This document shows positions 38,584 to 58,060 of a stretch of 64,000 bases of DNA, in pieces. Under the pieces are notes generated by a model that was not told where the DNA came from, ran no database searches, and saw only the letters and a program-made list of their open reading frames with translations. A program made the translations under genes and the position numbers. Every line of letters starts with the position of its first letter. The first letter of the stretch is position 1. Source of the DNA: Terriglobia bacterium (GTDB taxonomy: Bacteria > Acidobacteriota > Terriglobia > 20CM-2-55-15); the NCBI GenBank assembly GCA_963664115.2, contig CAXWPJ010000009.1, positions 224,001-288,000 on the forward strand, written 5' to 3'.

Positions 38584-39105
38584 ATGACCTTGCTCACCGC
38601 AACCTTCTACTACATGGCGACCGCCTCGGTGGTGAGCGCCCTACTGGCCGTGACACGGAGGAATCCCCTGCATAGCCTGCTCTGGGTGCTGGCGCTCTTC
38701 GGTCACGTCGCAGGCATCTTCCTGTTGCTGGAGGCTGAGTTTCTGGCGGTCGTGCAGGTCGTCGTGTATGCCGGGGCAATCTTGATCTTCTACCTCTTCG
38801 TCATGATGCTGCTCGACCTGTCGGACGAGGACACCCGGCCGCGGTTCGGCAATCATTGGCCCTTCGCTGCGGGTGCGGGACTCCTCTTTGTTGCCATAGC
38901 GTTTATCGCCCAACTCGAGCGGTCGAACATGGTCGGAATCAGGGGCACACCCTCGGGGGAAGGCCCGCTTCAAGGAAGCCTGGAAGGGATTGGTTTGGCG
39001 CTTTTCGGCCCATTTGCGTTGCCATTCGAAATGGTATCCCTGGTGCTGCTGGCCGCAATCGTCGGGGCTGTCGTTCTTGCACAGAGGAGGGTGCCCCGGC
39101 CATGA
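38584..39105 (+). CDS. nuoJ: NADH-quinone oxidoreductase subunit J
   Basis: AEFLAVVQVVVYAGAI, FEMVSLVLLAAIVGAVVL. Confidence 0.93.
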   Translation: MTLLTATFYYMATASVVSALLAVTRRNPLHSLLWVLALFGHVAGIFLLLEAEFLAVVQVVVYAGAILIFYLFVMMLLDLSDEDTRPRFGNHWPFAAGAGLLFVAIAFIAQLERSNMVGIRGTPSGEGPLQGSLEGIGLALFGPFALPFEMVSLVLLAAIVGAVVLAQRRVPRP

Positions 39106-39407
39106 TTGTGCCGACGAACGTGGTTCTGGGATTGAGCGCCATCCTGTTTGGAATTGGAGTATTCGGATTCCTGGCCCGTCGCAACGTTATCCTCATGCTC
39201 GTCTCGATTGAGGTCATGCTCAACGCAATTAACGTCAGTCTGGTCGGATTCAGCCAACACTTCGAAAATCCGCACGGCCAGATCATGGCCCTTTTCGTGA
39301 TCGCGGTGGCAGCCGCCGAAGCAGGGATCGGTCTGGGGCTTGTGATCGCCTTGAACCGGAACAAACCCGGGGTCCGCGTAGGAGACCTTACCGAACTCAA
39401 ATGGTAA
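39102..39407 (+). CDS. nuoK: NADH-quinone oxidoreductase subunit K
   Basis: RRNVILMLVSIEVMLNA, VAAAEAGIGL; ATG at 39102 overlaps the nuoJ stop. Confidence 0.93.
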   Translation: MIVPTNVVLGLSAILFGIGVFGFLARRNVILMLVSIEVMLNAINVSLVGFSQHFENPHGQIMALFVIAVAAAEAGIGLGLVIALNRNKPGVRVGDLTELKW

Positions 39408-40867
39408 CGTTTTCGGTTATGCCGCTGCTTGCGGTGCTCGTCTCGGCGGTGGGTGCGCTCCTGATCGCATGCACCGGCGAGCGTCGTGCCAATTTAAGGG
39501 AGTTCTGGTCGATTGCGGCGGGTGTCGGGCTGTTCGCTCTCGTCGCGAGCATGATCCCGAAGATATTAGCCGGTGGAACGGTGGAATTTGTGCTGTTCCG
39601 GATCCTCCCGGGCATCGATCTCGCCTTTAGAGCGGATGCCTTCGGCCTACTTTTTGCCTCCGGGGCGGCACTGCTCTGGATCTTGACCTCGTTCTATTCG
39701 ATCGGTTACATGCGTTCTCTCAAGGAGCACGCACAGACCCGTTACTATTCGTGCTTCGCACTGGCGCTCACCACGACGATTGGAGTGGCCTTCTCTGCCA
39801 ACCTCTTCACGCTGTTTGTATTTTACGAGGGCTTGACGCTGGTCACCTATCCACTCGTAGGGCACAACGAAACGGCCGAAGCCCGAGCGGGAGCCCGTAA
39901 ATATGTAATTTATCTGCTGGGTGCGGCCAAGGTCTTCCTGGTAGCCGCCATTGTGCTGACCTATAACGTCGCCGGGACCCTGGACTTCCGCAGTGGCGGA
40001 ATAATGCCGGCTGAACTGGTGAGCGAGCAGCCCACGCTTCTTTTTATGATCTTCGCCCTGTTCCTGTTTGGATTCGCCAAGAACGCACTGATGCCGCTAC
40101 ATAGCTGGTTACCGGCTGCAATGGTTGCGCCGACGCCGGTGAGCGCGCTTCTGCATGCGGTGGCTGTCGTCAAGACGGGTGTGTTCTCCACGCTCCGGGT
40201 CTTTCTCTTCATCTTCGGTCCCGAGGCCATGAGGGAACTCGGCGCCGACCAGCTGGCACTGGGCTTTGCAGCGGTAACGATTGTGGTCGGATCGCTTCTA
40301 GCGCTCAGCCAGGATAACCTCAAAGCCAGGCTGGCGTTCTCCACGGTCAGCCAGCTTTCCTACATCATCCTGGGCGCAGCACTCTTGAACTCCAGCGGAG
40401 TGATGGGCGGAGTCGCCCATATCACCAACCACGCCGTATCGAAGATCACGCTGTTCTTCTGCGCCGGTTCGATTTATGTATCCGCACACAAAACCGAAAT
40501 CAGCCAGATGTCCGGCCTGGCAAAACGCATGCCATGGACCATGGCTGCGTTTGCGCTGGCGTCCTTGAGCGTGGTGGGTATACCCATTACCAGCGGGTTC
40601 GTTTCCAAGTGGTACCTCGCCATCGGCGCGGTAGAGGGTCAGAGCTTTATCTTGTTGGGTGTACTTTTAGTCAGCTCGCTTCTAAACGCGGTCTACCTCG
40701 GCTCGATTGTGTACAAGGCCTACTTCGAAAAGGAGTCATCGCCGAACGAAGAAATCCGCGAAGTAGGGTGGATCGTTGCACCGTTGACAATTAGCGCAGC
40801 CCTAAGCCTGCTACTGGGACTCTACTCTGACCCTGTACTGGCACTGGCGGGAAGGGTCCTTCAGTGA
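39401..40867 (+). CDS. MrpD/MnhD-like antiporter-type subunit (proton-conducting membrane transporter family)
   Basis: FYE (TM5 Glu), FAKNALMPLHSWLP (TM7 Lys), RLAFSTVSQLSY; 488 aa with no NuoL-type tail. Confidence 0.85.
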   Translation: MVTFSVMPLLAVLVSAVGALLIACTGERRANLREFWSIAAGVGLFALVASMIPKILAGGTVEFVLFRILPGIDLAFRADAFGLLFASGAALLWILTSFYSIGYMRSLKEHAQTRYYSCFALALTTTIGVAFSANLFTLFVFYEGLTLVTYPLVGHNETAEARAGARKYVIYLLGAAKVFLVAAIVLTYNVAGTLDFRSGGIMPAELVSEQPTLLFMIFALFLFGFAKNALMPLHSWLPAAMVAPTPVSALLHAVAVVKTGVFSTLRVFLFIFGPEAMRELGADQLALGFAAVTIVVGSLLALSQDNLKARLAFSTVSQLSYIILGAALLNSSGVMGGVAHITNHAVSKITLFFCAGSIYVSAHKTEISQMSGLAKRMPWTMAAFALASLSVVGIPITSGFVSKWYLAIGAVEGQSFILLGVLLVSSLLNAVYLGSIVYKAYFEKESSPNEEIREVGWIVAPLTISAALSLLLGLYSDPVLALAGRVLQ

Positions 40868-41127
40868 ATTTCTTGGAGCGACAGCTGGAAGATAAGGTTC
40901 GTTTCGCCCGGATCAAGCGCCTCTTTTACGTCGTCCTGGGCGTAATAGCCGTTGCCGAAATCGTTCTGCCGCTCGTCTTCGAAGGAGAGGAACACCACTT
41001 CGGATTCGAGGGCTTCCCAGCCTGGGGCTCGCTCTATGGGCTGATCTCCTGCGTGGCGATCATCGTCGTATCGAAACTCATCGGAAAGGCGTGGCTCATG
41101 CGCCGTGAGAACTACTATGACTCTTGA
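40864..41127 (+). CDS. Small 2-TM membrane protein inside the nuo/mrp cluster
   Basis: 87 aa with two hydrophobic helices; overlaps both neighbouring genes. Confidence 0.8.
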   Translation: MNFLERQLEDKVRFARIKRLFYVVLGVIAVAEIVLPLVFEGEEHHFGFEGFPAWGSLYGLISCVAIIVVSKLIGKAWLMRRENYYDS

Positions 41128-42883
41128 GTGGGTACACCCGGGGCTCCTGCTCATCCTGGGCGCATGGCTCCTGGTTTTCCTCAAAGGTCCGATAAAACGC
41201 ATAGCAATGCTGGTCCTGCCAGGGGCGGCGCTGGTCGATTGCTTGTTGATGTCGCCTGGAACCTATGGTGCCGTGACGTTCATGGGCCAGGACCTCGTGC
41301 TTGGCCGCGTGGACAGTCTGAGCCTGGTATTTTCCTACATCTTCTCGCTCATGGCCTTCGTGGGCATGGTCTACGCCCTCCATGTAAAGGACGACTTCCA
41401 GCACGTCAGCGCCTTGATTTATGTGGGCGGCGCGCTCGGAGTCACGTTTGCCGGCGATTTCCTCTCCCTTTACCTCTTTTGGGAGCTCATGGCGATCTCG
41501 TCGGTGCTCCTGGTGTGGCTGCGACGGGAACCGTCAGCAGTAGCGGCCGGCTTCCGCTATCTTCTGATGCACATAGTCGGAGGACTCGTCCTCCTGGCAG
41601 GGATCGTAGTGCACTGGTCCCAGACCGGATCGCTTGCCTTCGAAGATATGGGCGTTTTTTCCGGCGGCCTGGCCTGGACCCTGATTCTCGTGGCCTTCCT
41701 TCTCAACGCGGCCGTTCCGCCTTTGGGGGCATGGCTTCCGGACGCCTACCCCGAGGCCACTGTTACAGGGGCGGTCTTCATGACGGCCTTTACAACCAAG
41801 TCCGCGGTCTATGTCTTGATCCGCGGCTTTGCGGGGACGGAACTCCTGATCTGGTTGGGAGGGGCGATGGCAGTCTATGGCGTGGTCTACGCCGTATTGG
41901 AAAACGACGCGCGACGCTTATTGGCCTACCACATCATCAGCCAGGTCGGCTACATGGTGTGTGGTGTAGGCGTCGGCACAGCGCTGGCCATAAACGGCGC
42001 CACGGCGCACGCGTTTGCTCACATCCTGTATAAGGCGCTTCTCTTTATGGGAGCCGGCGCCGTTATCCAGATGACAGGCGTGAGAAAGCTGAGCGAGATG
42101 GGGGGGCTCTACAAGACGATGCCGATCACGCTCGGGCTCTATATGATCGGCGCCTTTGCGATATCGGCCGTCCCGCTGTTCAGCGGTTTCGTAAGCAAGT
42201 CCATGGTGATTTCCGCAGCCGGCGAGGAACACCTGACGACGATCTTTCTGATGCTGACACTGGCCTCGGCCGGCACCTTCCTGCACACCGGCCTCAAGCT
42301 ACCGTATTACATGTTCTTTGCCAAGGACTCGGGCCTGCGCCCCAAGGAAGCGCCCACGAACATGCTCGTGGCCATGGGCCTGGCTGCCCTCGGATGTGTT
42401 CTGATCGGAGTGTTGCCCGGACTTCTGTACGCGCACCTTCCGAACCCGGTGGACTTCATTCCATATACGCTGACGCACGTGATGAGCACACTCGGAATGT
42501 TAGGCTTTACGGCCCTGGGATTTTTCCTGCTCCTCAAGCACCTCGATCCGGAACCCAAGGTCAGCCTCGACACGGATTGGTTCTACCGCCGTCCTTCGCT
42601 CAGGTTGGTGAGTCTGGTCCAGGGCCCACTGGCGCGTCTTGAGTACGGCTTTGTTGGAGAGATCTATGAGCGTCTGGTTCGCGGCCCTGTGTTGGGAGTA
42701 GCGAATCTGTTTCGCAAACTCGACAGCCTCGTCGTCGATTCCGCAATCGTAGGCGTGGGTCGTTCCACCCAGAGCTTGAGTCAGGTCCTGAAGACGATGG
42801 AGAACGGCCAGGTCCAGTATTACGGGCTGATCATGGCCGCAGGAATTCTCGCACTTTTGGCTCTGGCAGTGTTCTTTTCATGA
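41117..42883 (+). CDS. Na+/H+ antiporter subunit D-like protein with a NuoL-type C-terminal lateral helix
   Basis: FWELMA, WLPDAYPEA, RRLLAYHIISQVGYM, HAFAHILYKALLF; C-terminal D..VVD..G...GQVQYY plus a terminal TM as in NuoL. Confidence 0.85.
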   Translation: MTLEWVHPGLLLILGAWLLVFLKGPIKRIAMLVLPGAALVDCLLMSPGTYGAVTFMGQDLVLGRVDSLSLVFSYIFSLMAFVGMVYALHVKDDFQHVSALIYVGGALGVTFAGDFLSLYLFWELMAISSVLLVWLRREPSAVAAGFRYLLMHIVGGLVLLAGIVVHWSQTGSLAFEDMGVFSGGLAWTLILVAFLLNAAVPPLGAWLPDAYPEATVTGAVFMTAFTTKSAVYVLIRGFAGTELLIWLGGAMAVYGVVYAVLENDARRLLAYHIISQVGYMVCGVGVGTALAINGATAHAFAHILYKALLFMGAGAVIQMTGVRKLSEMGGLYKTMPITLGLYMIGAFAISAVPLFSGFVSKSMVISAAGEEHLTTIFLMLTLASAGTFLHTGLKLPYYMFFAKDSGLRPKEAPTNMLVAMGLAALGCVLIGVLPGLLYAHLPNPVDFIPYTLTHVMSTLGMLGFTALGFFLLLKHLDPEPKVSLDTDWFYRRPSLRLVSLVQGPLARLEYGFVGEIYERLVRGPVLGVANLFRKLDSLVVDSAIVGVGRSTQSLSQVLKTMENGQVQYYGLIMAAGILALLALAVFFS

Positions 42884-44346
42884 GTTATCCGGTCCTGACA
42901 GTTACGACGTTTCTGCCCCTCGCGGGGGGTGTTCTGATCCTGCTCCTGGGCAGCGAGCGACTCGCTCGCTGGGTCGCCCTCATCACCACTCTGGCCACCG
43001 TAGCCGTTTCGGTCCCGCTTTACAGGGGATTCGACAAGACATCGAGCACACTGCAATTCGTGGAGTCGCGGGACTGGATCCCGAATTGGAACATCGCTTA
43101 CGGCATGGGCGTGGACGGAATCAGCCTTCCATTCATCTTCCTTGCCTCGCTGCTCGGCGTCCTGTGCATCGGCGCCTCATGGTCCGCGATCCAAACTCGA
43201 ACGCGAGAGTTCTATGCGGCGCTCCTGGTGGCGGAAACCGCGATGATCGGCCTTTTCGCGGCCTCGAACCTTTTTCTCTTCTATATTTTCTGGGAACTCA
43301 TCCTGGTTCCGGTCTTTCTCCTGATCGGCGTCTGGGGAGGTCCGGGGCGTGTCTACGCGTCGATCAAGTTTTTGCTCTTCACTCTCGCCGGGAGCGTTTT
43401 CATGCTTGTGGGCATGATCGCTCTCTACCAGGCATTGGGCACATTGGACTTCAGGGCCCTGGCCCTGGCCCGGGACAGCCTCGATTCGAGCCAGCAAGCC
43501 TGGCTCTTCGCGGCCTTTCTGGCCGCTTTCGCAGTCAAGGTGCCCATGTTTCCGGTACATACCTGGCTCCCGGACGCTCACACGGAAGCTCCAACGGCGG
43601 GGAGCGTGATCCTGGCCGGAATTCTTCTCAAAATGGGCGCATACGGGTTCCTGCGTGTCTCGATTCCGGTTCTTCCCGACGCCGTGCAACTCTTCTTGAC
43701 GCCGATGCTGGTCGTCTCCGTGGTGGCTATTGTCTATGGCGCATATGTGACCCTTGTCCAGACGGACGTAAAACGTCTCATCGCGTTCTCGAGCATCAGC
43801 CACATGGGTTTCGTCACGCTGGGTATTTTCACACTCGACCAGGGCGGGGTCGAAGGAGCGGTCCTGCAGATGATCAACCACGGGATCATTTCGGCGGCAC
43901 TATTCTTGTGCGTCGGCATGATCTACGAGCGCACTCACACGCGGGAAATCAACGATTACGGGGGAGTTGCCAAAGCCGCACCGGTCTATTCGACCTTGCT
44001 CGGCCTGTTTTGTCTGGCAGGAACGGGATTCCCAGGTCTGAATTCATTCGTAGGGGAGTTTCTGATCATCGGTGGCGCTTTCAGAACTCACGCCTTGCTG
44101 GGGGCGATGGCGGTCTGGGGTGTAGTCCTTGGAACGGCGTACCTCGTCTGGCTCTACTACCGCGTTGTTATGGGCCAGATCAACCCCGGGCTCGAGGGGC
44201 TCAAGCTAGAGCTCAATATTCGTGAGGTGGCGACGCTTGCCCCTCTGGTCTTATTCGCGGTGTGTCTCGGCCTCTACCCTGATCTCGTCCTCTCTTATTT
44301 GCGAGCTCCCGTGGCCGCGCTACTTGCCGGGGGGGTCACCCCGTGA
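42880..44346 (+). CDS. nuoM: NADH-quinone oxidoreductase subunit M
   Basis: GVDGISL, FWE, AVKVPMFPVHTWLPDAHTEAPT, LLKMGAYG. Confidence 0.95.
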   Translation: MSYPVLTVTTFLPLAGGVLILLLGSERLARWVALITTLATVAVSVPLYRGFDKTSSTLQFVESRDWIPNWNIAYGMGVDGISLPFIFLASLLGVLCIGASWSAIQTRTREFYAALLVAETAMIGLFAASNLFLFYIFWELILVPVFLLIGVWGGPGRVYASIKFLLFTLAGSVFMLVGMIALYQALGTLDFRALALARDSLDSSQQAWLFAAFLAAFAVKVPMFPVHTWLPDAHTEAPTAGSVILAGILLKMGAYGFLRVSIPVLPDAVQLFLTPMLVVSVVAIVYGAYVTLVQTDVKRLIAFSSISHMGFVTLGIFTLDQGGVEGAVLQMINHGIISAALFLCVGMIYERTHTREINDYGGVAKAAPVYSTLLGLFCLAGTGFPGLNSFVGEFLIIGGAFRTHALLGAMAVWGVVLGTAYLVWLYYRVVMGQINPGLEGLKLELNIREVATLAPLVLFAVCLGLYPDLVLSYLRAPVAALLAGGVTP

Positions 44347-45764
44347 ACGGCGCCACTCTTTCTGACGTCGCCCTGCTGGTCCCGGAACTGATTCTGGTCG
44401 GGATGTCCGTCGCATTGATCGTTCTCGCACGACGTATAAAGAACACGCCGATTGCGGCAACAGGGACAGTCCTTGCTGCATTGGGCGCTGGCATGTACTC
44501 CTTCTGGGCGGTGTCAGAAGGCACTCAAGTCGGCTTTGGCGGCATGCTCATTCTGGACGGCTACTCCCAATTCTTCAAGGTGCTCATTGCCGCCACTCTG
44601 GCTCTGGTCGCGCTTCTGTCGGTGAGAAGCCACGATCTGGAAGAGGTGCCCCGCGGCGAGTACCATGCCCTGCTCCTGTTGGCTTCGACGGGGATGATGC
44701 TTGCAGTTTCATCACTGGATCTGCTGACCCTCTACTTGGGCCTAGAGCTTATGACGCTGTGCTCCTACATCCTGGTCGGGATCGCGGTGGACAGACCGAC
44801 GTCAAACGAGGCCGCGATCAAGTATTTCCTTTTGGGGTCATTCGCCTCAGCCCTGCTTCTCTACGGGATCGCCCTGACCTACGGCCTCACCGGCGCTACC
44901 AACTATCAGGCCGTTGCCTCGGTAATTACGGGTCAGGGGCTCACGGAGAACCCGCTTCTGCTAGTGGCCATCGGACTGGTAGCGGCCGGGCTCGCATTCA
45001 AGATTGCGGTGGTGCCGTTTCACGCCTGGGCGCCGGACGCTTACCAGGGTGCAGGTGCACCTGTCGCGGGCTTCCTGGCGGCCGGTTCCAAGGCCGTCGG
45101 CCTGGCCGCTCTGGGAAGGGTTTCCCTGACCGCGTTCGGCGAGGAAACCTACGTCTTGTCCCTGGTTCTTGCGGGACTCGCAGCCCTTTCGATTGTCGTC
45201 GGCAGCATCGTGGCCCTGGCCCAGACCGACATGAAACGTTTGCTGGCCTATTCTGCAATCGCGCACGCGGGTTACGCACTGATGGGCCTCATGGCCGGTA
45301 CGAGGGAGGGGATTTCTGCAACCATGACCTACGCCTTCTTCTACGTCTTTATGACGCTCGGAACATTCGGCGTGGTCATCGCTCTGGGCGAGCGTGGTCG
45401 AACTCTGGATGGATACAAGGGCCTGGCTCGGCAGCGACCCGGAACAGCCGCCCTCATGTTACTTTTTCTCTTGTCTCTGACCGGCATCCCTCCAACGGGG
45501 GGCTTCGTCGCCAAGTTTGTCGTTATCCTGAGCGCTGTGCGCGCAGGCTACGTGGGACTGGCTGTACTTGCGGTGGCCTGCAGCGTAATTTCAGCATTCG
45601 TGTACATGCGGGTAGCCGTCTTCATGTACATGAGAGAGCCCGAGGAGCCGGCGCCTTCGAGCTTCCCGGTGGCGGTGTCCGCCGCTCTCGCCGTGGCAGC
45701 GCTGGTCACTTTAATTGGTGGGATCTCCCCGGGCATTTTGACGGTCTGGGCGGTGTCTCCGTGA
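44343..45764 (+). CDS. nuoN: NADH-quinone oxidoreductase subunit N
   Basis: EAAIKYFLLG, FKIAVVPFHAWAPDAYQGA, GIPPTGGFVAK. Confidence 0.95.
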   Translation: MNGATLSDVALLVPELILVGMSVALIVLARRIKNTPIAATGTVLAALGAGMYSFWAVSEGTQVGFGGMLILDGYSQFFKVLIAATLALVALLSVRSHDLEEVPRGEYHALLLLASTGMMLAVSSLDLLTLYLGLELMTLCSYILVGIAVDRPTSNEAAIKYFLLGSFASALLLYGIALTYGLTGATNYQAVASVITGQGLTENPLLLVAIGLVAAGLAFKIAVVPFHAWAPDAYQGAGAPVAGFLAAGSKAVGLAALGRVSLTAFGEETYVLSLVLAGLAALSIVVGSIVALAQTDMKRLLAYSAIAHAGYALMGLMAGTREGISATMTYAFFYVFMTLGTFGVVIALGERGRTLDGYKGLARQRPGTAALMLLFLLSLTGIPPTGGFVAKFVVILSAVRAGYVGLAVLAVACSVISAFVYMRVAVFMYMREPEEPAPSSFPVAVSAALAVAALVTLIGGISPGILTVWAVSP

Positions 45765-45792
45765 TGTCCACGATAATGTACACTAATGACTT

Positions 45793-46146
45793 ATGAACGC
45801 ATACATCGGGATAGCGGTCAGTTTCGTTCTGGCTGCAGGGATCACGGGCTTGATGGTCATCCTGGCCTCCACGCTGGGAAAGAAGAATTCCACGCCTGTA
45901 AAGTTGTCGCCGTTCGAATGTGGGGTGGATCCGTTTTCGCTCCCTATCGGCAAGTTGGCAATCAAGTTTTACCTGACTGCTATTCTGTTCATCCCCTTCG
46001 ATGTCGAGCTGGTGTTCCTCTATCCCTGGGCCGTGCTTTACCGCCAGCTGGGGACCTTGGGACTGGTTGAAATGGGACTCTTTCTGGGCATCCTGATGGC
46101 AGGTTATGTCTACGCCTGGGACAATGGCGCTCTTGACTGGCAATGA
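45793..46146 (+). CDS. nuoA: NADH-quinone oxidoreductase subunit A
   Basis: PFECGVDP, FDVELVFLYPWA, GALDW. Confidence 0.95.
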   Translation: MNAYIGIAVSFVLAAGITGLMVILASTLGKKNSTPVKLSPFECGVDPFSLPIGKLAIKFYLTAILFIPFDVELVFLYPWAVLYRQLGTLGLVEMGLFLGILMAGYVYAWDNGALDWQ

Positions 46147-46185
46147 CTGGAAATGACTGGCAATGACTGGAAATGACTGGCAATG
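46134..46185 (+). repeat. Tandem 10-bp repeat TGACTGG(C/A)AA, five copies
   Basis: tgactggcaa tgactggaaa tgactggcaa tgactggaaa tgactggcaa, beginning in the last codons of nuoA. Confidence 0.95.
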
Positions 46186-46219
46186 CAGGACAATGATCCC
46201 GCAATTCTGTAAATAAATC

Positions 46220-46723
46220 ATGTTCAACGACACATCGTTTCTAACGAGCCGGCTCGACGACGCGGTTGGCTGGGCACGAAAGTATTCAATCTTCCAGTAT
46301 CCGTTCGTGACTGCGTGCTGCGGGATGGAGTACATGGCGACGGCCTGCTCTCATTACGACGTGGACCGTTTCGGAGCGGGCTTCCCAAGATTTTCTCCTC
46401 GCCAGGCCGACGTACTTTTCGTCGTCGGCACGATCAGTCACAAGATGGCGCCTGTCCTCCTACGCATCCATGAGCAGATGGCGGATCCCAAGTGGGTGGT
46501 CGCTTTCGGCGTGTGCGTGTGCACGGGCGGTTTTTATGACAACTACGCCACAGTGATGGGCATCGATACCATCATGCCGGTGGATGTTTATATACCTGGA
46601 TGCCCACCGCGGCCGGAGATGGTCCTCGACGGCCTGATGAAGCTGCAGGACAAGATCCAGGACCATGGAGTAAGCGGCAAGCGCGTCGCGCCTGAACCTC
46701 GTCCGGACCTCTTCGAAGCATGA
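46220..46723 (+). CDS. nuoB: NADH-quinone oxidoreductase subunit B
   Basis: TACCGME, SPRQAD, PGCPPRPE. Confidence 0.96.
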   Translation: MFNDTSFLTSRLDDAVGWARKYSIFQYPFVTACCGMEYMATACSHYDVDRFGAGFPRFSPRQADVLFVVGTISHKMAPVLLRIHEQMADPKWVVAFGVCVCTGGFYDNYATVMGIDTIMPVDVYIPGCPPRPEMVLDGLMKLQDKIQDHGVSGKRVAPEPRPDLFEA

Positions 46724-47301
46724 ATACCACATCTTTGATCGAATCCCTCACGGACCGCTTTCCCGCTGCGGTGACCTCGTCCCATGCCTACCGGGGTGAC
46801 GCAACACTTATTGTTCGTCCGAAGAGCCTCGTCGACGTGGCGCGGTTTCTCAAGGAGGACCCGGCCTTAAAAATGAATTACCTCATGGACCTGACTGCCG
46901 TCGACTACTCCGCATTCGGGAAACACCCCACGCCGGCCTTTTTCACTTCTTCGGGAGTGACGGTGAAGCCGTCTTCCGAGATTCCGGATGAAGAACCGTG
47001 GCCCGGCCCTCCGGACGAAGGGCGGTTTGCGGTCGTGTACCACTTCTTCTCGACCACCCACAAACATCGGCTACGACTGGTTGTCCCGGTAGAGGAGAGT
47101 GTGGCTCAGGTGGATTCGCTGACCGCGTTGTGGCCGGGCGCCGACTGGCTTGAACGCGAGGTCTGGGACATGTTCGGGATCGGTTTTACGGGACATCCCG
47201 ACTTGAAGCGGATTCTCATGTACGAAGGGTTCGAGGGTCACCCGCTACGGAAGGACTATCCCGTCAAAAAGCGTCAGCCGCTGATCGGACCGACCAACTA
47301 A
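46720..47301 (+). CDS. nuoC: NADH-quinone oxidoreductase subunit C
   Basis: DLTAVDY, WLEREVWDMFGI, GHPLRKDYP. Confidence 0.95.
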   Translation: MNTTSLIESLTDRFPAAVTSSHAYRGDATLIVRPKSLVDVARFLKEDPALKMNYLMDLTAVDYSAFGKHPTPAFFTSSGVTVKPSSEIPDEEPWPGPPDEGRFAVVYHFFSTTHKHRLRLVVPVEESVAQVDSLTALWPGADWLEREVWDMFGIGFTGHPDLKRILMYEGFEGHPLRKDYPVKKRQPLIGPTN

Positions 47302-47310
47302 CAGCGTTCT

Positions 47311-48693
47311 ATGGAAAAGAACAGCCCATCGCCGGAGACGGCGCCGACACCCCGGGGCGACCCGGCAGAACTCGAAACGCGGGACATGCTCATCAACGTG
47401 GGTCCCGCTCATCCCGCCATGCACGGGATCATCCGGATCGTAGCTAAGCTCGACGGGGAACAGATCGAGGATGCCGAAGTAGAGATCGGCTACCTTCACC
47501 GTGGTTTTGAAAAGATGGCTGAAACGGTCGACTATAACGGCGTCATGCCTTACACCGACCGGCTCAACTATGTCTCGCCGCTCATCAACAATATGGGCTA
47601 TTGCATGGCTGTGGAAAAGCTCCTTGGGATCTCGGTCCCGGAGCGCTGCCACTACGTTCGGGTCATTCTCTCCGAGATCTCGAGGCTCTCGGATCACCTG
47701 ACCTGCGTCGGTGCAACCGCCATGGAGTTGGGGGCCTTCAGCGTGTTTCTGTACATGATCAAGGCCCGGGAGTACCTGTGGGAGTTGGTGGAGAAGGTCA
47801 CCGGAGCCCGGTTGACAGTCAGCTATTGCCGCGTGGGCGGTGTCAAAGCGGACCTTCCCGATGACTTCGCCGAACCTTGCCGCAAGGCCTTTGAGGAAAC
47901 CCGCAAGGTCCTCGCTGAGGCGGATGGGCTCCTCACCCGCAATCGCATTTTCACCGACCGTATGACAGGGACAGGAGTGCTCTCCGTCGACGACGCCATA
48001 GGCTACGGAATCACCGGCCCCTTCCTTCGTGCGAGCGGCGCGGACTACGACGTGCGCAAAGACTGCCCCTACGCCGTCTACGACCGGATACCATTCGACG
48101 TGCCAGTGGGTAGCAAAGGCGACAACATGGATCGCTATCTGGTACGCATGGAGGAAATGCAACAGTCCATGCGGATCGTGGAAACAGCGCTTGCCGACAT
48201 ACCGCCCGGCCCCGTCATGGTCAATCCTGAGACGGGGCGCCCCATCCCGGCCGCCGATATGGTAGACCTGGCCAAAGTGGGCGACATCAGAGCCATTTCA
48301 GGCAGGCCCGCCGTCGTCGATCCGACACTCGAGGGGGCCAGTCGGGCCGAATATCCGTCTATTGCTGCGGATGAGAAACGCGTTTTTCTACCTGCTAAAG
48401 AGGATACTTACGGCAACATCGAAGGGCTCATGAACCACTTCAAGCTGGTCATGTTGGGCCACGGCCTGCGCCCCCCAAAAGGGGAAGTCTATTTCCCGGT
48501 GGAAGGCGCCAACGGAGAACTCGGGTTCTACGTAGTGAGCGACGGAGAGGGACGTCCCTACCGGGTCCGGGTCCGCCCGCCCTGCTTCGCTATCATGTCG
48601 GCCCTGCCCCATCTCCTTGTCGGGGGCATGATGGCCGATATGGTCCCCACCTTTGGGTCCGTGAACATGATAGGCGGGGAACTCGACCGGTGA
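47311..48693 (+). CDS. nuoD: NADH-quinone oxidoreductase subunit D
   Basis: GPAHPAMHG, GYLHRGFEK, DRLNY, GELDR; no NiFe CxxC motifs. Confidence 0.96.
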   Translation: MEKNSPSPETAPTPRGDPAELETRDMLINVGPAHPAMHGIIRIVAKLDGEQIEDAEVEIGYLHRGFEKMAETVDYNGVMPYTDRLNYVSPLINNMGYCMAVEKLLGISVPERCHYVRVILSEISRLSDHLTCVGATAMELGAFSVFLYMIKAREYLWELVEKVTGARLTVSYCRVGGVKADLPDDFAEPCRKAFEETRKVLAEADGLLTRNRIFTDRMTGTGVLSVDDAIGYGITGPFLRASGADYDVRKDCPYAVYDRIPFDVPVGSKGDNMDRYLVRMEEMQQSMRIVETALADIPPGPVMVNPETGRPIPAADMVDLAKVGDIRAISGRPAVVDPTLEGASRAEYPSIAADEKRVFLPAKEDTYGNIEGLMNHFKLVMLGHGLRPPKGEVYFPVEGANGELGFYVVSDGEGRPYRVRVRPPCFAIMSALPHLLVGGMMADMVPTFGSVNMIGGELDR

Positions 48694-50486
48694 CGCTCAA
48701 GGAAATGGAAGACGCGGCGGAGGAAATCCTCCGACGCTATGAGTACCCGAAGGCGGCGATGCTGCCTGTCCTGTGGCTCGTACAGCAGAACCAGGGCTAC
48801 ATCTCACCTGAGGCAGAAGCTTGGGTGGGCCACCTTCTTGGAGTGTCTATCGCCCACGTGCGCGAGGTAGTCTCCTTTTACAATATGTTCCATACCCAGC
48901 CCGTCGGACGGCGGGAACTTCGGGTCTGCACGAGTCTGCCATGCCGCCTCCGCGGAGGGCACGATGTGTTGGAACGCATCAAGGACGGATTAAAGATCAG
49001 CCCGGGTGAGACCACGCCCGGCCAGGAGGTGACGCTCACCGAGGTCGAATGCTTGTGTGCTTGCGAGATGGCGCCCATGGCCCAGCTCGACGAACGCTTT
49101 GTCGGCCCTCTTGACGGTGGGGCCGTAGCCACCCTCATCGAGGACGCTTTGAGCGAACCCGGGAGCGGGGAGTCGACCCCGGAGCCCGACCCCTACATTT
49201 GCACGGATGGGCCGGTTCTCTCCACGCGCTTCAACGATCCGGAGGGGACCTGGTTCGAAACTTACGTCGCCGATGACGGATACGCCGCCTCCCGGCGAGT
49301 GCTCACCTCGATGACGCCGAGGGAGGTGATCGACGAGGTCGCCAAGGCCAAGCTCCGCGGTCTCGGCGGGGCGGGTTTTCCGGCCAGCCGAAAGTGGTCC
49401 TTCATACCCAAGGATTCGACCGAGCCCAAGTACCTCGTAGTCAACGCAGACGAGGGCGAACCCGGGACTTTCAAGGACCGTTACATTCTGGAAAGGGACC
49501 CGCACGCCCTGATCGAGGGCATGATCATCGCAGCCTATGCGATCGGCAGTCATAAGGCCTACGTCTACATTCGGGGCGAGTATTTCAGGTCCGCCAAACG
49601 TTTACAACGCGCCCTGGACGAGGCCTATAACACGAATTGGCTGGGCAAGAACATTCAGGGGACAGGCTTTGACCTGGACGTGGTCATCCACCGGGGCGCC
49701 GGCGCCTACATTTGTGGAGAAGAGACTGCGCTCCTGACGTCGCTCGAGGGCGGCAAAGGCTTTCCCAAGATCAAACCCCCTTTTCCGGCTATTTCGGGCC
49801 TCTTCAAATGCCCCACGATCGTCAACAATGTGGAAACCCTGGCCTGTGTCCCTTTTATCCTGCGCAACGGAGCCGAGCGCTTTGCCGAAATAGGTTCCGA
49901 GACCCAGGGTGGAACACGCCTCTTCTGTGTGAGCGGGCACGTGGTCCGGCCCGGCGTTTACGAGACGTCGGTCAGCATCACCCTGCGGGAACTGATCGAG
50001 CAGCATGCCGGGGGCGTACGCGATGGCAAGAAGCTTAAGGCTGTCATTCCCGGGGGGATCTCAGCCAAGATTCTCAGGGCTGACGAGATCGATGTGGGCA
50101 TGGATTTCGACTCGCTCAGGGGGGCCGGAACCATGGCTGGATCCGGGGGCGTAATCGTCATGGATGAAACCACCTCCATGGTCGAGGCGCTCGAGTCCGC
50201 GGCCCGGTTCTTCGCTGACGAGTCCTGCGGACAGTGTTCCCCCTGCCGGGAGGGGACAGGCTGGGTGCATCGCATCGTCGACCGCATCACCGAAGGGCAG
50301 GGACGTGTCGAGGATCTGGACGACCTTCTCGCTATTGCCGGCGATATGGAAGGCAACACTATCTGCGTTTTCGCGGACGCGGCGGCCTGGCCAGTCCAGT
50401 CCTACATCATGAAATTCAGGGACGAGTTCGAGGATTACATCCGTACCGGCCAGCGGGTCGGGGGAAAGGAAGCTGCGCATGCCTAA
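48690..50486 (+). CDS. nuoEF: Fused NuoE-NuoF (NADH-binding flavoprotein with N1a and N3 clusters)
   Basis: NuoE CTSLPC...ECLCAC, then NuoF GGAGFP, NADEGEPGTFKDR, GAGAYICGEETAL, ESCGQCSPCREG in one ORF. Confidence 0.93.
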   Translation: MTLKEMEDAAEEILRRYEYPKAAMLPVLWLVQQNQGYISPEAEAWVGHLLGVSIAHVREVVSFYNMFHTQPVGRRELRVCTSLPCRLRGGHDVLERIKDGLKISPGETTPGQEVTLTEVECLCACEMAPMAQLDERFVGPLDGGAVATLIEDALSEPGSGESTPEPDPYICTDGPVLSTRFNDPEGTWFETYVADDGYAASRRVLTSMTPREVIDEVAKAKLRGLGGAGFPASRKWSFIPKDSTEPKYLVVNADEGEPGTFKDRYILERDPHALIEGMIIAAYAIGSHKAYVYIRGEYFRSAKRLQRALDEAYNTNWLGKNIQGTGFDLDVVIHRGAGAYICGEETALLTSLEGGKGFPKIKPPFPAISGLFKCPTIVNNVETLACVPFILRNGAERFAEIGSETQGGTRLFCVSGHVVRPGVYETSVSITLRELIEQHAGGVRDGKKLKAVIPGGISAKILRADEIDVGMDFDSLRGAGTMAGSGGVIVMDETTSMVEALESAARFFADESCGQCSPCREGTGWVHRIVDRITEGQGRVEDLDDLLAIAGDMEGNTICVFADAAAWPVQSYIMKFRDEFEDYIRTGQRVGGKEAAHA

Positions 50487-52131
50487 GCTAAGCATTGACG
50501 GCCGCGAGGTGAGCGTCGATCAGGGAACCACGGTCATCCAGGCGGCGGAGACGCTGGGGATTTTCGTTCCGCGCTACTGCTACCACCCCGGGCTCTCTAT
50601 CGCGGGCAACTGCCGCATCTGCCTCGTGGAAGTGGAGAAATCCCCCAAGCTCCAGATCGCATGCAACACTCCTGCGACCGAGGGGATGGTTGTTCACACA
50701 AAGAGCGACACCGCCCAGGACGGACGTCGCTCGGTACTGGAGTTCCTCCTGGCCAATCACCCGCTCGACTGCCCGGTTTGCGACCAGTCCGGTGAGTGCG
50801 ACTTACAGAATTTCTACCTGGACTTCGGCCTCTACAATCCGCGCTTCAGGGAGCGTAAAGTCAAGAAAAAGAAAGCTGTGACGCTGGGCCCGTATGTGAT
50901 GCTGGACCAGGAGCGCTGCATCCTCTGTTCCCGGTGCGTGCGCTTCACGGACGAGATCACCGAGACCGGAGAGTTCGGCATCTTCAATCGCGGAGACCGC
51001 TCCGAGCTGGGGCTGTACCCTGGCAAGGAACTCGACAATCGGTATTCGACCAACGTGGTGGACATCTGCCCCGTCGGTGCGCTGACCGAGCGGAAGTTCC
51101 GTTTCAAGACGCGGGTCTGGTACCTCTCCAGCGCCCCGACCGTCTGCAACGGTTGCAGTCAGGGCTGCAACATGGATTTGCATTACGTTCTGGACCGCCC
51201 TCACCTGAACGACGGCGCGCGGCTGCTGCGTGTCAAGCCACGATACAACCCGGATGTAAACCAATGGTGGTTGTGCGATGAAGGGCGCTATGGCCTCGAT
51301 TGGATCGACCAGGCTCGGCTCCGGAAGGTACGCGGGCCGTCGGGGGACGGGGCCGAGGGCGCAGATGCTCAGAATGCCACAAATACAACGGATACGACAT
51401 GGGACACGGCCCTTCGAACAATCTCAGCAGCTCTCTCGGTCCTGCCCAAGGGACGGATCGGGGTAATTGCCTCAGCCCGACTCACGATCGAAGAGCTGTT
51501 TCTGATCCGGGAGATTTTCCAGCGCGGCCTCGGCGCCCAGGTCAGTGCCTCTGTTCCAGAAATGCCAGGCTCTTCCGACGATTTCCTCATTAAGGCGGAT
51601 AAGAACCCCAACACCATGGGGGCGGAGCTGCTGGGACTATCCGGTCCGAACGCGCCGGACGCAGGACAGATCCTGGACGAGGCACTCGCCGGGAACCTTG
51701 ACGCCCTGTGGGTTATGGGGCACGACCTTGTCGCACTCTTCGGTGAAGAGAAGGCCCGACAACTCCGAGACAAGGTGGGTCTCTTCGTCTTCTCCGGAAC
51801 GAACGAAAACCGAACGGTTCCCTTGGCCCATTGGGCCTTGCCGAGCGCGGCCTATGTGGAAAAAGACGGGACCTTCGTCAACTGCCACGGACGCGTCCAG
51901 CGAATCGGCCAGGCGTTTCCTCCGCTTGAGGACTCCCGTGAGGACTGGCGCATTCTCCTGGAATTGGCCCGGCTGCTAATGCTCGAACTCGACTGGCACG
52001 AACCCCAGGACATCTTCGCGGCAGTGGCCTCCACCGAGGCGCCTTTCGCGGGAATGAGCTACGAGACGATAGGAGATCAGGGGGCTGGGGTCCGGCCAAC
52101 CGAGCCCGCTGAAGAGGTATCCGTCACGTGA
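50479..52131 (+). CDS. nuoG: NADH-quinone oxidoreductase subunit G (short form)
   Basis: PRYCYH, GNCRICLVE, NHPLDCPVCDQSGECDLQ, CILCSRC, CPVGAL, CNGCSQGC (N7). Confidence 0.93.
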   Translation: MPKLSIDGREVSVDQGTTVIQAAETLGIFVPRYCYHPGLSIAGNCRICLVEVEKSPKLQIACNTPATEGMVVHTKSDTAQDGRRSVLEFLLANHPLDCPVCDQSGECDLQNFYLDFGLYNPRFRERKVKKKKAVTLGPYVMLDQERCILCSRCVRFTDEITETGEFGIFNRGDRSELGLYPGKELDNRYSTNVVDICPVGALTERKFRFKTRVWYLSSAPTVCNGCSQGCNMDLHYVLDRPHLNDGARLLRVKPRYNPDVNQWWLCDEGRYGLDWIDQARLRKVRGPSGDGAEGADAQNATNTTDTTWDTALRTISAALSVLPKGRIGVIASARLTIEELFLIREIFQRGLGAQVSASVPEMPGSSDDFLIKADKNPNTMGAELLGLSGPNAPDAGQILDEALAGNLDALWVMGHDLVALFGEEKARQLRDKVGLFVFSGTNENRTVPLAHWALPSAAYVEKDGTFVNCHGRVQRIGQAFPPLEDSREDWRILLELARLLMLELDWHEPQDIFAAVASTEAPFAGMSYETIGDQGAGVRPTEPAEEVSVT

Positions 52132-53219
52132 TAGAAGTTCTGATCATCAAAATTACACTGGCGGGAATCGTTTTCTTCACGGTCTTGAACTTCGCAGGGT
52201 TTCATACCTGGGCGGAGCGGAAACAGTCGGCTCTGATCCAGGATAGAATCGGGGCCAACCGTGCGGATATTCTCGGCTTTAGGATGCTGGGACTCTTTCA
52301 CGGCATCGCCGACGCGATCAAGTTGTTCACCAAGGAGGACATCGTCCCGACGGGAGCAGACAGGACACTCCATACGCTGGCCCCATTCTTTTCGGTGTTC
52401 TTCGCCCTCGTCGCGTTCGCAGTGATTCCCTTCGGGGACACATTGATTCTCGGGGACAGGGTCATTGAACTCCAGGTCGCAACGTTTGACGCCGCGCTCC
52501 TCTACGTTTTCGCCATGCTCTCCCTCGGAGTCTACGGCGTGATCCTCGCGGGCTTTGCCTCGCCCAACAACTACGCAATCATGGGAAGCCTCAGGGCCAC
52601 CGCACAGATGATCTCCTATGAAATCGCACTGGGAGTCTCTGTTGTTGGAGTGATCATGGTTTACGGGACCATGGATCTGTCGGAACTCGTGCGGGCTCAG
52701 GGGCAGATGATCGGCGGCTGGATTCCTTTCTGGGGCATCGTCGCCCAGCCCGTGGCCTTTGTCGTATTTGTGACCGCGGCACTGGCCGAAACCAAGCGGA
52801 TGCCCTTTGATATGCCGGAAGGGGAATCAGAGATCATCGGGTACTTTGTGGAGTACAGCGGCATGAAGTTCGGGATGTTCTTCCTCACGGACTTCCTAGA
52901 GACCATCATGGTGGCATGCTTGTCGACCACACTCTTTTTCGGCGGGTGGCAGGTACCCTTCCTGTTGCCGGACGGGTTCCACTTCCCCTGGGGAGCGGAG
53001 ATACTCATGCCCAATTGGCTCTACGCCCTGCTGGGTGTGGTGAGCTTTTCGACCAAGGTCGTGGTTTTCTGTTGGATCTTCATGCAGCTTCGCTGGACCC
53101 TGCCACGATTCCGTTATGATCAGCTCATGAAACTGGGCTGGCGAGGGCTGTTCCCGATCGCGGTGGCCAATATTGTGGTCACGGCCGGCGTGCTGATGTT
53201 TTTCGGAGAGGGGTTCTAA
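52128..53219 (+). CDS. nuoH: NADH-quinone oxidoreductase subunit H
   Basis: ERKQSALIQDRIG, AETKRMPFDMPEGESE, LPRFRYDQLM. Confidence 0.96.
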   Translation: MIEVLIIKITLAGIVFFTVLNFAGFHTWAERKQSALIQDRIGANRADILGFRMLGLFHGIADAIKLFTKEDIVPTGADRTLHTLAPFFSVFFALVAFAVIPFGDTLILGDRVIELQVATFDAALLYVFAMLSLGVYGVILAGFASPNNYAIMGSLRATAQMISYEIALGVSVVGVIMVYGTMDLSELVRAQGQMIGGWIPFWGIVAQPVAFVVFVTAALAETKRMPFDMPEGESEIIGYFVEYSGMKFGMFFLTDFLETIMVACLSTTLFFGGWQVPFLLPDGFHFPWGAEILMPNWLYALLGVVSFSTKVVVFCWIFMQLRWTLPRFRYDQLMKLGWRGLFPIAVANIVVTAGVLMFFGEGF

Positions 53220-53878
53220 TGGCCGTAAGAGTTGTCTCAAGGCCCGAGTTGACTTTCTGGGAGAAGCTCTACATCCCGCAGATCGTCTCCGGCTTCAGGA
53301 TCACGTCCAGACACTTCTTCCGAAACCTCTTTCTCCATACGGCCCACAAACTGGGCCTGTTCAAACACCTTGCTGCCTCCGCCACCATACAGTATCCCGA
53401 AGAACTCCGGCCGCTGATGTCACGCTACCGAAGCCGCCACCGGCTGACCGTGCGCGACGACAACACACCACGCTGCGTCGGATGTATGCTGTGTGAAACG
53501 GTCTGCCCGGCCCACTGCATTACGATCGTGGCCGGGGAACACCCCGACCCCAATGTCGAGAAATATCCGATCCGCTTCGACATCGATCTGGGGGTGTGCG
53601 TCTATTGTGGTTACTGCGTCGAGGTATGCCCTGAGGATGCGATCCGGATGGACACGGGAATTCTTGATCTGGCGGCTTACTCGAGGGAGGCCATGCAGTT
53701 GGACATCCACGAACTCATGGACCCAAAGCTGCACAAACCCATCCCCCAGTGCGACCTCGATTTCCCGCACAAGTGCGAGGTGAGCGGGGGCGAGATGAAG
53801 GGAAGCTGGGAGGGATTGGTGGAACATCGGCCAGCGGACTCACCACAGGTCCCGGCAGAGTCGGCAAAGCAGGGATAA
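53219..53878 (+). CDS. nuoI: NADH-quinone oxidoreductase subunit I (complete copy)
   Basis: QYPEE, CVGCMLCETVCP, CVYCGYCVEVCPEDAI. Confidence 0.95.
   Translation: MAVRVVSRPELTFWEKLYIPQIVSGFRITSRHFFRNLFLHTAHKLGLFKHLAASATIQYPEELRPLMSRYRSRHRLTVRDDNTPRCVGCMLCETVCPAHCITIVAGEHPDPNVEKYPIRFDIDLGVCVYCGYCVEVCPEDAIRMDTGILDLAAYSREAMQLDIHELMDPKLHKPIPQCDLDFPHKCEVSGGEMKGSWEGLVEHRPADSPQVPAESAKQG
53306..53811 (+). repeat. Left copy of a ~506-bp direct repeat (nuoI internal/3' part)
   Basis: Near-identical to 60037..60542; about six substitutions seen by eye. Confidence 0.95.
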
Positions 53879-56933: not shown

Positions 56934-57215
56934 ATGGCGAAACGACGGAATTTTTCAGCAGATTTCAAAGCGAAGGTAGCGCTGGCCGCGATGCGTGGCG
57001 ACGGCACGATGGCCGAATTGGCGGCGCGGTACAAGATCCATCCGAACATGATCACGAAGTGGAAGCGTGATGCGCTTGATAGCGTTAAAGAAGCATTCCA
57101 GCGAGGCCGGGATCCATCGGCCCGGAACCACGAGGACGAGATCAAAGACCTGCAGGCCAAGATCGGTGAACTGGTCGTGGAACGGGATTTTTTAGCACGA
57201 GCCTTCAATCGATGA
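56934..57215 (+). CDS. IS3 transposase OrfA (HTH)
   Basis: RRNFSADFKAKVALAA HTH_Tnp_1 pattern; GGATTTTTTAG near the 3' end. Confidence 0.92.
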   Translation: MAKRRNFSADFKAKVALAAMRGDGTMAELAARYKIHPNMITKWKRDALDSVKEAFQRGRDPSARNHEDEIKDLQAKIGELVVERDFLARAFNR

Positions 57216-58060
57216 GCTTGGGTCGAAGGCGCGAGGTGGTCGAACCGGGCCATGAGCAGCTCAGTGTGGTCCGGCAATGCGACTTGATCGGGTTGAGCCG
57301 TTCGAGTTGGTACTATCGGCCACGGGGTGAGAGTGATCGCAATCTGGACCTGATGCGCGTGATCGACGAGGCGTATCTGAAGATGCCCTGGTATGGGTCC
57401 AGGCAGATGACGCGTCATCTGAAACGTCTCGGCTACGATGTGGGCCGGAAGCGGGTACGCCGACTAATGCGGTTGATGGGGCTGCGCTCGGTGGCACCGC
57501 AGACGTCCCGGAGAAACCCGGCTCATCCGGTGTACCCATATCTACTCAACGACATTGCCGTGGAGCGGGCGAATCAAGCGTGGTCTACCGACGTGACGTA
57601 TATCCCGATGGCGCACGGATTCTTATATCTGGTCGCGATCATGGACTGGCATACGCGGAAGGTGTTGTCCTGGCGGCTGTCCAACACCCAGGACACGACG
57701 TTTTGCCTTGAAGCCCTCGACGAGGCGATCGAGGAATACGGCAGTCCGGAAATCTTCAACACCGATCAGGGCAGCCAGTTCACCAGCAAGGCCTGGACGG
57801 ACCGACTTAAAGAACGAGGTATCCGGATCTCCATGGACGGCAAGGGGCAATGGATCGACAACGTTTTCATCGAACGCCTATGGCGCTCGATCAAATACGA
57901 ATGCGTTTATCTAAACGCCTTCAGTGACTTCAAAGATGCCCGGCACCACATAGGTGTCTGGATGAACTATTACAATAACGACCGCCCGCATTCCAAACTC
58001 GACGATCTCACGCCGAGCGAAGCCTACGCGGGAACACGGCCACTGACCTCGGCAGCATAA
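57212..58060 (+). CDS. IS3 transposase OrfB (DDE integrase core)
   Basis: WSTDVTY, NTDQGSQF, DNVFIERLWRSIKYE. Confidence 0.94.
   Translation: MSLGRRREVVEPGHEQLSVVRQCDLIGLSRSSWYYRPRGESDRNLDLMRVIDEAYLKMPWYGSRQMTRHLKRLGYDVGRKRVRRLMRLMGLRSVAPQTSRRNPAHPVYPYLLNDIAVERANQAWSTDVTYIPMAHGFLYLVAIMDWHTRKVLSWRLSNTQDTTFCLEALDEAIEEYGSPEIFNTDQGSQFTSKAWTDRLKERGIRISMDGKGQWIDNVFIERLWRSIKYECVYLNAFSDFKDARHHIGVWMNYYNNDRPHSKLDDLTPSEAYAGTRPLTSAA

What the first reader, a model, noticed from the sequence alone, without database searches (positions are those of the whole stretch)
39401..45764. Four antiporter-like subunits plus a small 2-TM protein: a Mrp/Nuo hybrid membrane arm
Seen: there is no canonical nuoL. In its place are a 488-aa MrpD-like subunit, an 87-aa 2-TM protein and a ~588-aa MrpD-like subunit with a NuoL-type lateral helix and terminal TM, followed by nuoM and nuoN. 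Knowledge: standard complex I has three such subunits (L, M, N), and variants with an extra one ('2M' complexes) are proposed to move more ions per electron pair. Inference: an extended arm with higher stoichiometry or Na+ coupling, useful for reverse electron transport, with the 87-aa protein as a connector.
Basis: partly seen in the sequence, partly recalled or inferred. Interest (0 to 1): 0.75.

Follow-up and report, generated by a model that had tools for sequence, protein, structure and literature searches.

The report
Green-type complex I, four pump-like subunits
This is a real respiratory complex I gene cluster of the already described but biochemically untested "green" type, in which the usual NuoL pump subunit is replaced by two antiporter-like proteins and an uncatalogued 87-residue membrane protein, and whose lengthened bracing helix suggests that all four pump-like subunits likely assemble into one longer membrane arm.

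Summary
In detail: an intact nuoJK-D1-small-D2-nuoMN-ABCD(EF)GHI operon in an Acidobacteriota-like genome. It is the published "green complex I" of rhizobia: same membrane-arm gene order, D1/small/D2 55/43/58% identical to S. meliloti, one clade for D2 (98/92). The scan found this before on other DNA (8 earlier notes). The layout is common: 66 of 80 fetched loci show the whole arm. The same three genes also end Mrp antiporter operons, but this genome has no Mrp small subunits, so Na+ coupling is unsupported.

This favours the order D2-D1-M-N with D2 at the tip (about 60%; the alignment register is ambiguous). (2) D2 lacks the TM7 lysine (Asn in 80 of 80), so a fifth proton is doubtful. (3) The small protein travels with D2.

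The cluster holds the genome's only nuoF and no autotrophy marker was found, so a mainly reverse role is not supported. New member of a known, untested kind.

The parts
38584..39105 (+). nuoJ, 173 aa; first gene of the cluster
   Evidence: PF00499 over cut-off
39105..39407 (+). nuoK, 100 aa (ATG at 39105)
   Evidence: NF004320 over cut-off; PF00420
39401..40867 (+). D1: 14-TM antiporter-like subunit, 488 aa, no lateral helix; E143 (TM5), K227 (TM7), H252+K258 (TM8, MrpA-like), K403 (TM12)
   Evidence: 55% to the S. meliloti orthologue
40864..41127 (+). S: 87-aa two-helix membrane protein, predicted N-in/C-in; no Pfam or NCBIfam family; conserved G59, K71, G74, E82, Y85
   Evidence: 43% to the S. 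meliloti hypothetical protein at the same place
41117..42883 (+). D2: antiporter-like subunit, 588 aa, with TM15, lateral helix and TM16; E123 (TM5), N197 in place of the TM7 Lys, K228 (TM8), K361 (TM12)
   Evidence: PRK12668 over cut-off; model; 58% to S. meliloti
42575..42808 (+). D2 residues 487-564: lateral helix from the DWFY anchor to the Gly before TM16 (77 residues), with a second anchor-like motif GEIYE 27 residues in
42880..44346 (+). nuoM, 488 aa, canonical key residues (TM12 Glu)
   Evidence: TIGR01972 585 vs 263.8
44343..45764 (+). nuoN, 473 aa
   Evidence: TIGR01770 401.6 vs 332.6
45793..48693 (+). nuoA, nuoB, nuoC, nuoD (quinone module)
48690..52131 (+). fused nuoE-nuoF (598 aa; the genome's only NuoF) and a short nuoG (550 aa)
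52128..53878 (+). nuoH and nuoI, end of the cluster

Best explanation
The cluster encodes a green-type complex I in which D1, the 87-aa protein and D2 replace NuoL and likely assemble with NuoM and NuoN into one four-subunit arm that is predicted to pump protons, not sodium, during NADH-to-menaquinone electron transfer. Shown: gene content, orthology to the rhizobial green complex I, key residues, helix length. Inferred order (about 60%): D2 at the tip, then D1, M, N. D1 is a NuoL/MrpA-like core without a tail and would sit in the NuoL position against NuoM. D2 would supply the brace in trans: its helix crosses D1 and M, and TM16 clamps N. Inferred role of S: a structural partner of D2. Inferred stoichiometry: D2 lacks the TM7 lysine of the Glu/Lys coupling pair, so it more likely serves as brace and proton exit than as a full extra pump (4 H+/2e- about 55%, 5 H+ about 35%, Na+ involvement about 10%). 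The three-gene cassette is shared with, and was likely recruited once from, a three-MrpD type of Mrp operon.
For: Identity: same order J-K-D1-hypothetical-D2-M-N-A-B-C-D-E-F-G on S. meliloti and R. lentis plasmids; 99 plasmid records match D2 at E<=1e-80, all rhizobial genera; PMC9040806 defines green complex I as two MrpD-like subunits replacing NuoL. D2 core tree built without the helix: 17 nuo-context rows including S. meliloti form one clade, 98/92; D1 likewise 99 in FastTree. Assembly by elimination: 7 antiporter-like genes in the genome, 4 here and 3 in a second nuo operon; no MrpE; 10 of 11 Mrp small-subunit queries have no tblastn hit, the eleventh one weak hit at E 0.004. Helix ruler, anchor to Gly before TM16: 24 in MrpA, 47 E. 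coli, 49 Thermus and 52 Paracoccus (counted by hand), 75-77 in 78 of 80 nuo-context D2. Within the D2 family, anchor to TM16 is 80-84 in 80 of 80 nuo-context against 55-70 in 13 of 14 non-nuo copies. A five-subunit relative has a further 26-residue insert (PMC9040806); helix length tracks subunit number in solved complexes (PMC8165549). The structure alignment puts D2 485-494 on E. coli NuoL 537-547. Best PDB matches are the MBS pair: D2 to 6u8y_X, D1 to 6u8y_H. TM7 Asn in 80 of 80 nuo-context D2; D1 keeps TM7 Lys and the TM8 His motif in 72 of 72; LysTM7 is described as invariant and essential (PMC7419157). S and D2 lie together, away from mrp D0-D1, in two single-contig genomes. Menaquinone pathway genes present.
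Against: Register is ambiguous: profile alignment places D2's second motif (GEIYE) on E. coli DWLYD with only a 17-residue insert, which fits D2 next to NuoM; the structure alignment rests on residues with pLDDT under 50. The ruler has exceptions: this genome's own three-subunit NuoL measures 76, one Mrp-context D2 measures 80 (L105), and PMC9040806 reports inserts without extra subunits. D1, not D2, has the TM8 His of distal subunits. Neither has the acidic residue after the TM12 Lys. Six of 14 non-nuo D2 also carry TM7 Asn, so Asn may be tolerated in working antiporters. All nuo-context D2 are one clade, so the 80 are one event, not 80. No biochemical data exist in what I could read.
Confidence: 0.65

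Rival explanations
1. Same four-subunit arm, but ordered D1-D2-M-N: D2 stands in the NuoL position with an ordinary helix over M and N, and D1 is added at the tip, held by the 87-aa protein.
For: D2's last 75 residues align without gaps of note to the NuoL tail from GEIYE on; gene order D1-S-D2; D1 has the MrpA/NuoL TM8 His and falls near NuoL/MrpA in the tree (support 87 only).
Against: Mrp-context D2 have only the DWFY anchor and a roughly 44-residue helix, matching a three-subunit span; DTDWxY is invariant in 59 of 59 while GEIYE is not; in solved complexes the helix integrates all antiporter-like subunits (PMC8165549); S travels with D2 without D1.
Confidence: 0.3
2. The arm is a true five-proton pump used mainly in reverse (menaquinol to NAD+).
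For: Four subunits with TM5 Glu, TM8 Lys and TM12 Lys/Glu; with menaquinone, forward pumping is limited to about 3.3 H+/2e- at 150 mV (recalled midpoint potentials), so a 5 H+ enzyme would tend to run backwards; PMC9040806 draws 5 ions for such complexes; the rhizobial form is upregulated in nodules (PMC7415380).
Against: D2 TM7 Lys replaced by Asn; this is the genome's only NuoF; no RuBisCO or NiFe hydrogenase found in a 97% complete genome; a haem-copper oxidase is present.
Confidence: 0.3
3. The Mrp-derived subunits make the enzyme a Na+ pump or a redox-coupled Na+/H+ antiporter.
For: Family names; cassette shared with Mrp operons; the ATP synthase c subunit has Gln, Glu-Ser and Tyr of the recalled Na+ motif, though not the Thr; one Mrp structure suggested Na+ through MrpD (PMC8165549).
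Against: The Na+ path in Mrp runs through MrpE/F/G/C and the MrpA C-terminal domain (PMC7419157), none of which was found in this genome; no Nqr/Rnf.
Confidence: 0.1
4. D1 and S do not join complex I; D2 alone is the NuoL and D1/S are passengers or serve another complex.
For: No direct evidence of assembly.
Against: D1 and S found in 79 of 80 loci each (the exception starts inside the cluster), 60-92% identity for D1, overlapping genes, intact key residues, no other antiporter complex in the genome.
Confidence: 0.05

Closest known systems
[quoted passage not shown]
   Same: Order J-K-D1-small-D2-M-N-A-B-C-D-E-F-G; orthologous D1, small protein and D2 (55, 43, 58%); same TM7 Asn and helix length in S. 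meliloti D2.
   Different: nuoE and nuoF fused (49 of 55 loci with an EF hit); NuoG 550 vs 853 aa; nuoH/I co-directional, not inverted; chromosomal contig of an Acidobacteriota-like genome, not a symbiosis plasmid.
2M complex I (Chadwick et al. 2018; not held, known through passages of PMC9040806 and PMC11636273)
   Same: Four antiporter-like subunits; helix longer by about one subunit width.
   Different: Fourth subunit is not a second NuoM; no canonical NuoL; extra small protein.
Complex_I_3 of Ca. Manganitrophaceae (PMC9040806)
   Same: Same two MrpD-like subunits.
   Different: It has two NuoM (five subunits) and 26 more residues in the MrpD2 helix.
Three-MrpD Mrp-type operons (F-G-B'-B-C-D0-D1-S-D2) in other Acidobacteriota
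   Same: Same D1-S-D2 cassette, about 45-56% identical.
   Different: No redox module; carry the Na+-module genes; shorter D2 helix in 13 of 14 copies measured; TM7 Lys in 8 of 14.
MBS of Pyrococcus (PDB 6u8y)
   Same: Best sequence matches in the PDB: D2 to the helix-bearing chain X, D1 to chain H.
   Different: Two antiporter-like subunits, a Na+ module, sulfane sulfur as acceptor; matches are distant (E 1e-40).

Membership tests
Green complex I | Two MrpD-like subunits replace NuoL in a nuo operon | tested here: met
Green complex I | Rearranged order, membrane-arm genes J-K...M-N before A-G | tested here: met
   against rhizobial records; the order in the defining paper itself was not seen
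Green complex I | D1 and D2 orthologous to the rhizobial subunits, apart from Mrp-operon copies | tested here: met
   D2 clade 98/92; D1 clade 99 FastTree
Green complex I | Additional 4Fe-4S cluster(s) in NuoG (figure legend of PMC4967309) | tested here: inconclusive
   A fourth Cys motif at 223-230 and PF04879 are present; how many clusters the definition requires was not seen, and NuoG is 300 aa shorter
Green complex I | Assembly and activity as one enzyme | not testable with these tools
   needs purification
2M complex I | Second nuoM in the cluster | tested here: not met
   one TIGR01972 gene in the cluster, two in the genome
2M complex I | Canonical NuoL with a roughly 26-residue helix insert | tested here: not met
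   no NuoL over cut-off; D2 carries a comparable extension instead
Mrp Na+/H+ antiporter | Small subunits MrpB, C, E, F, G | tested here: not met
   none in the cluster; none found in the 97% complete genome
Canonical 14-subunit complex I | Exactly three antiporter-like subunits L, M, N | tested here: not met
   four in the cluster
Canonical 14-subunit complex I | NADH module EFG, quinone module BCDI, anchors A, H, J, K | tested here: met
Manganitrophaceae Complex_I_3 | Five antiporter-like subunits | tested here: not met
   four

The most novel reading that the evidence does not exclude
Green complex I splits NuoL's jobs over two subunits: D1 is the switch-bearing core in the NuoL position, while a tip subunit D2, which lacks the supposedly invariant TM7 lysine and needs its own uncatalogued two-helix partner, braces four subunits with a helix lengthened by one 26-residue step and serves as the proton exit. 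The D2 family would then give a natural series of three-, four- and five-subunit arms with matching helix lengths, a direct test of whether subunit number sets the H+/2e- ratio.
Probability: 0.45. Interest if true: 0.55.

Novelty: new member of a known kind. Interest (0 to 1): 0.32.

Why it matters
The architecture is published, so this locus is not a discovery. The kind remains untested: whether complex I variants with a fourth antiporter-like subunit pump more protons bears on the open question of whether each subunit moves its own proton or all leave through the tip subunit. The natural TM7 Lys-to-Asn change and the helix-length series give specific predictions, and S. meliloti carries the same cassette in a tractable host. 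The 87-aa protein is a probable unannotated subunit of both this enzyme and a class of Mrp antiporters.

Tried and rejected
Complex prediction of D1 (3-484) + D2 (1-436) + S (6-87): no verdict, score 0.00; not used either way. Family for S: none in Pfam or NCBIfam for the window protein; scattered weak hits among 61 homologues; Atlas lists only unnamed clusters; fold searches gave nothing above background. My recalled idea that S resembles small partners of solute symporters found no support in these scans. S as a split NuoL TM15/TM16: rejected, its charge pattern predicts N-in/C-in and D2 has its own TM15/16. S Lys71 standing in for D2's missing lysine: rejected, the Lys is kept beside most Lys-type D2 too. 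Fused forms of S were not searched for by length; the 150 best representatives listed are 43-282 aa. Expression: one RNA library gave a few near-identical low-depth contig pieces over D1, S/D2 and D2, but DNA carry-over was not controlled, so no claim. ATP-citrate lyase search rang in no control and is uninformative. No sigma-70-like promoter was found. The first mixture-model tree did not finish; FastTree and a smaller IQ-TREE run were used. The TM15-end column often picked TM14 and was ignored. The two defining papers were not held. A search for the position of TM15 in NuoL found no usable paper. A survey centred on Deltaproteobacteria was not run, so the range outside Acidobacteriota rests on best hits only.
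Full report
Observation. The window is G000:C9:224001-288000 of a 4.9 Mb genome, 97% complete; its closest D2 relatives are Terriglobia MAGs. From 38584 to 53878 the + strand carries nuoJ, K, D1 (488 aa), S (87 aa), D2 (588 aa), nuoM, N, A, B, C, D, a fused EF, G, H, I. Neither D1 nor D2 reaches the NuoL cut-off; D2 passes PRK12668 and D1 falls just under PRK08375. The D2 model shows TM15, a 74-residue helix and TM16; S models as a helical hairpin, mean pLDDT 83.

Conservation. A scan of GTDB genomes found 186 D2 relatives and kept the best 80. All 80 have nuoK or nuoM beside them and 66 have the whole J-K-D1-S-D2-M-N block; record titles name Acidobacteriota, Planctomycetota, Nitrospirota, one deltaproteobacterium and one unclassified bacterium. 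In an even sample of the window's phylum, 32 of 301 genomes (own included) pass the D2 family cut-off. I fetched 20 of those hits, chosen towards the lower-scoring ones: 4 lie in nuo operons, 13 end an Mrp-type operon, 3 are S-D2 pairs standing apart. Twenty of 20 ORFs tested from five such operons are Mrp-family proteins. S has 1122 representatives at 50% identity with E up to 0.001 and no family name.

What it is. PMC9040806 (passages read) describes the green complex I of rhizobia as having two MrpD-like subunits in place of NuoL. PMC7415380 (passages) adds a peculiar gene order and upregulation in symbiosis, and calls its function hypothetical. Rhizobial plasmids hold 99 records matching D2; two annotated ones show J-K-D1-hypothetical-D2-M-N-A-B-C-D-E-F-G. 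Identities to S. meliloti are 55% (D1), 43% (S) and 58% (D2). A tree of D2 cores, cut before the helix, groups all 17 nuo-context rows with S. meliloti (98/92), inside or beside the Mrp-context rows; D1 behaves the same in FastTree. So this is a green complex I. Eight earlier notes of this scan reached the same label on other genomes; I had reached it and tested it here.

Does the cassette assemble into complex I? Indirectly yes. The genome has seven antiporter-like genes: four here, three in a second nuo operon on C2 that lacks EFG. MrpE was not found, nor MrpB, F or G by tblastn. No other complex could take D1, S and D2. Their genes overlap and their key residues are intact except one.

Order of the arm. 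In solved complexes the lateral helix is as long as the number of antiporter-like subunits it spans (PMC8165549, passages). Measured from the DxxY-type anchor to the Gly before TM16, MrpA gives 24, NuoL 47-52 (E. coli; Thermus and Paracoccus counted by hand) and nuo-context D2 75-77 in 78 of 80. Within the family, anchor to TM16 is 80-84 in 80 of 80 nuo-context copies, and 55-59 in 8, 63-70 in 5 and 80 in 1 of 14 non-nuo copies (two near-duplicate Mrp loci were left out). The five-subunit Manganitrophus form adds 26. The steps are about 26 residues, which suggests D2 sits at the tip and spans D1 and M to reach N. Against this: D2 has a second anchor-like motif 26-27 residues downstream (found in 60 of 80), and profile alignment puts that one on the E. 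coli anchor, leaving a 17-residue insert. The structure alignment favours the first anchor but at pLDDT under 50. The genome's own three-subunit NuoL also measures 76, so the ruler is not strict. The 80 copies are one clade, hence one event. I put D2-D1-M-N at about 60%. I found no statement of this order in searches, but the two defining papers and the figures of PMC9040806 were not available.

Ion and stoichiometry. E. coli key positions (numbers recalled, residues confirmed) map as follows. D1: Glu, Lys, His plus Lys, Lys, the TM8 pattern of MrpA (PMC7419157, passages); kept in 72 of 72. M and N: canonical. D2: TM5 Glu, TM8 Lys and TM12 Lys kept, TM7 Lys replaced by Asn in 80 of 80, also in 6 of 14 non-nuo copies. 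PMC7419157 calls the TM7 Lys/TM5 Glu pair invariant and essential and favours exit of all protons through the tip subunit. D2 has invariant His and Lys on TM11 and Thr, Ser, His, Lys on TM13. I infer that D2 is more likely brace and exit than a full extra pump. Na+ coupling is unlikely because the Mrp Na+ module is missing.

Direction. The genome has futalosine-pathway menaquinone genes, one haem-copper oxidase, and no RuBisCO, NiFe hydrogenase or Nqr/Rnf in searches whose controls rang. With recalled midpoint potentials, NADH to menaquinone supports about 3.3 H+/2e- at 150 mV, so a five-proton enzyme would tend to reverse. But this cluster has the only NuoF, and no autotrophic demand was seen. 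Forward or reversible NADH oxidation at ordinary stoichiometry fits better; reverse use is not excluded.

The small protein. Predicted N-in/C-in, conserved in its second helix and cytoplasmic tail. In two single-contig genomes S-D2 lies far from mrp D0-D1, so S is tied to D2 rather than being a D1-D2 linker by gene order alone. Its binding site is not known.

Verdict. Real, intact, already described in kind, widespread, biochemically untested. The added value is a testable order, a missing lysine and an unannotated subunit. Interest 0.32.

Noticed in passing
window 53299-53811 and 60030-60542: A 513-bp direct repeat (98.4%) duplicates the 3' part of nuoI on both sides of a lower-GC stretch holding an 898-aa ORF, two transposase-like ORFs (56934-58060) and a 423-aa ORF; it looks like an island inserted into nuoI, and the two copies end in different C-termini. 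The ORF labels are from reading the sequence, not from a family scan.
   Followed up: partly
L084 (G000:C2:484919-496822): Second nuo operon A-B-C-D-H-I-J-K-L-M-N without EFG. Its NuoL has a lateral helix of four-subunit length (76 vs 47 in E. coli) through a duplicated motif, though there is only one nuoM; it may be a relic of a 2M form or borrow a subunit. All four same-genus genomes also have two nuoM in total.
   Followed up: partly
L085:6029-8197 (G000:C9 about 526-528 kb): A separate nuoG-like gene in two ORFs followed by a nuoI-like gene, away from both operons.
   Followed up: no
L106:8615-11005, L109:8411-10508, L102:8589-10569: S-D2 pairs standing apart from the rest of the mrp operon, one next to a transposase-like ORF.
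   Followed up: partly
L105:9174-10955: An Mrp-context D2 with a long tail (80 residues anchor to last TM), the one exception to the length pattern.
   Followed up: no
L123:1486-1869 (minus strand): ATP synthase c subunit with Gln, Glu-Ser and Tyr of the recalled Na+-binding motif but Leu in place of Thr; ion specificity unclear.
   Followed up: no
window 47311-48693 and 46720-47301: NuoD carries an insert of about 50 residues and NuoC one of about 35 relative to the S. meliloti and C2 copies.
   Followed up: no
G066, G078, G114, G156, G215, G233: Six sampled genomes carry two D2-family genes; in G066 and G215, where both were fetched, one is in a green complex I operon and one in an Mrp operon.
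   Followed up: partly
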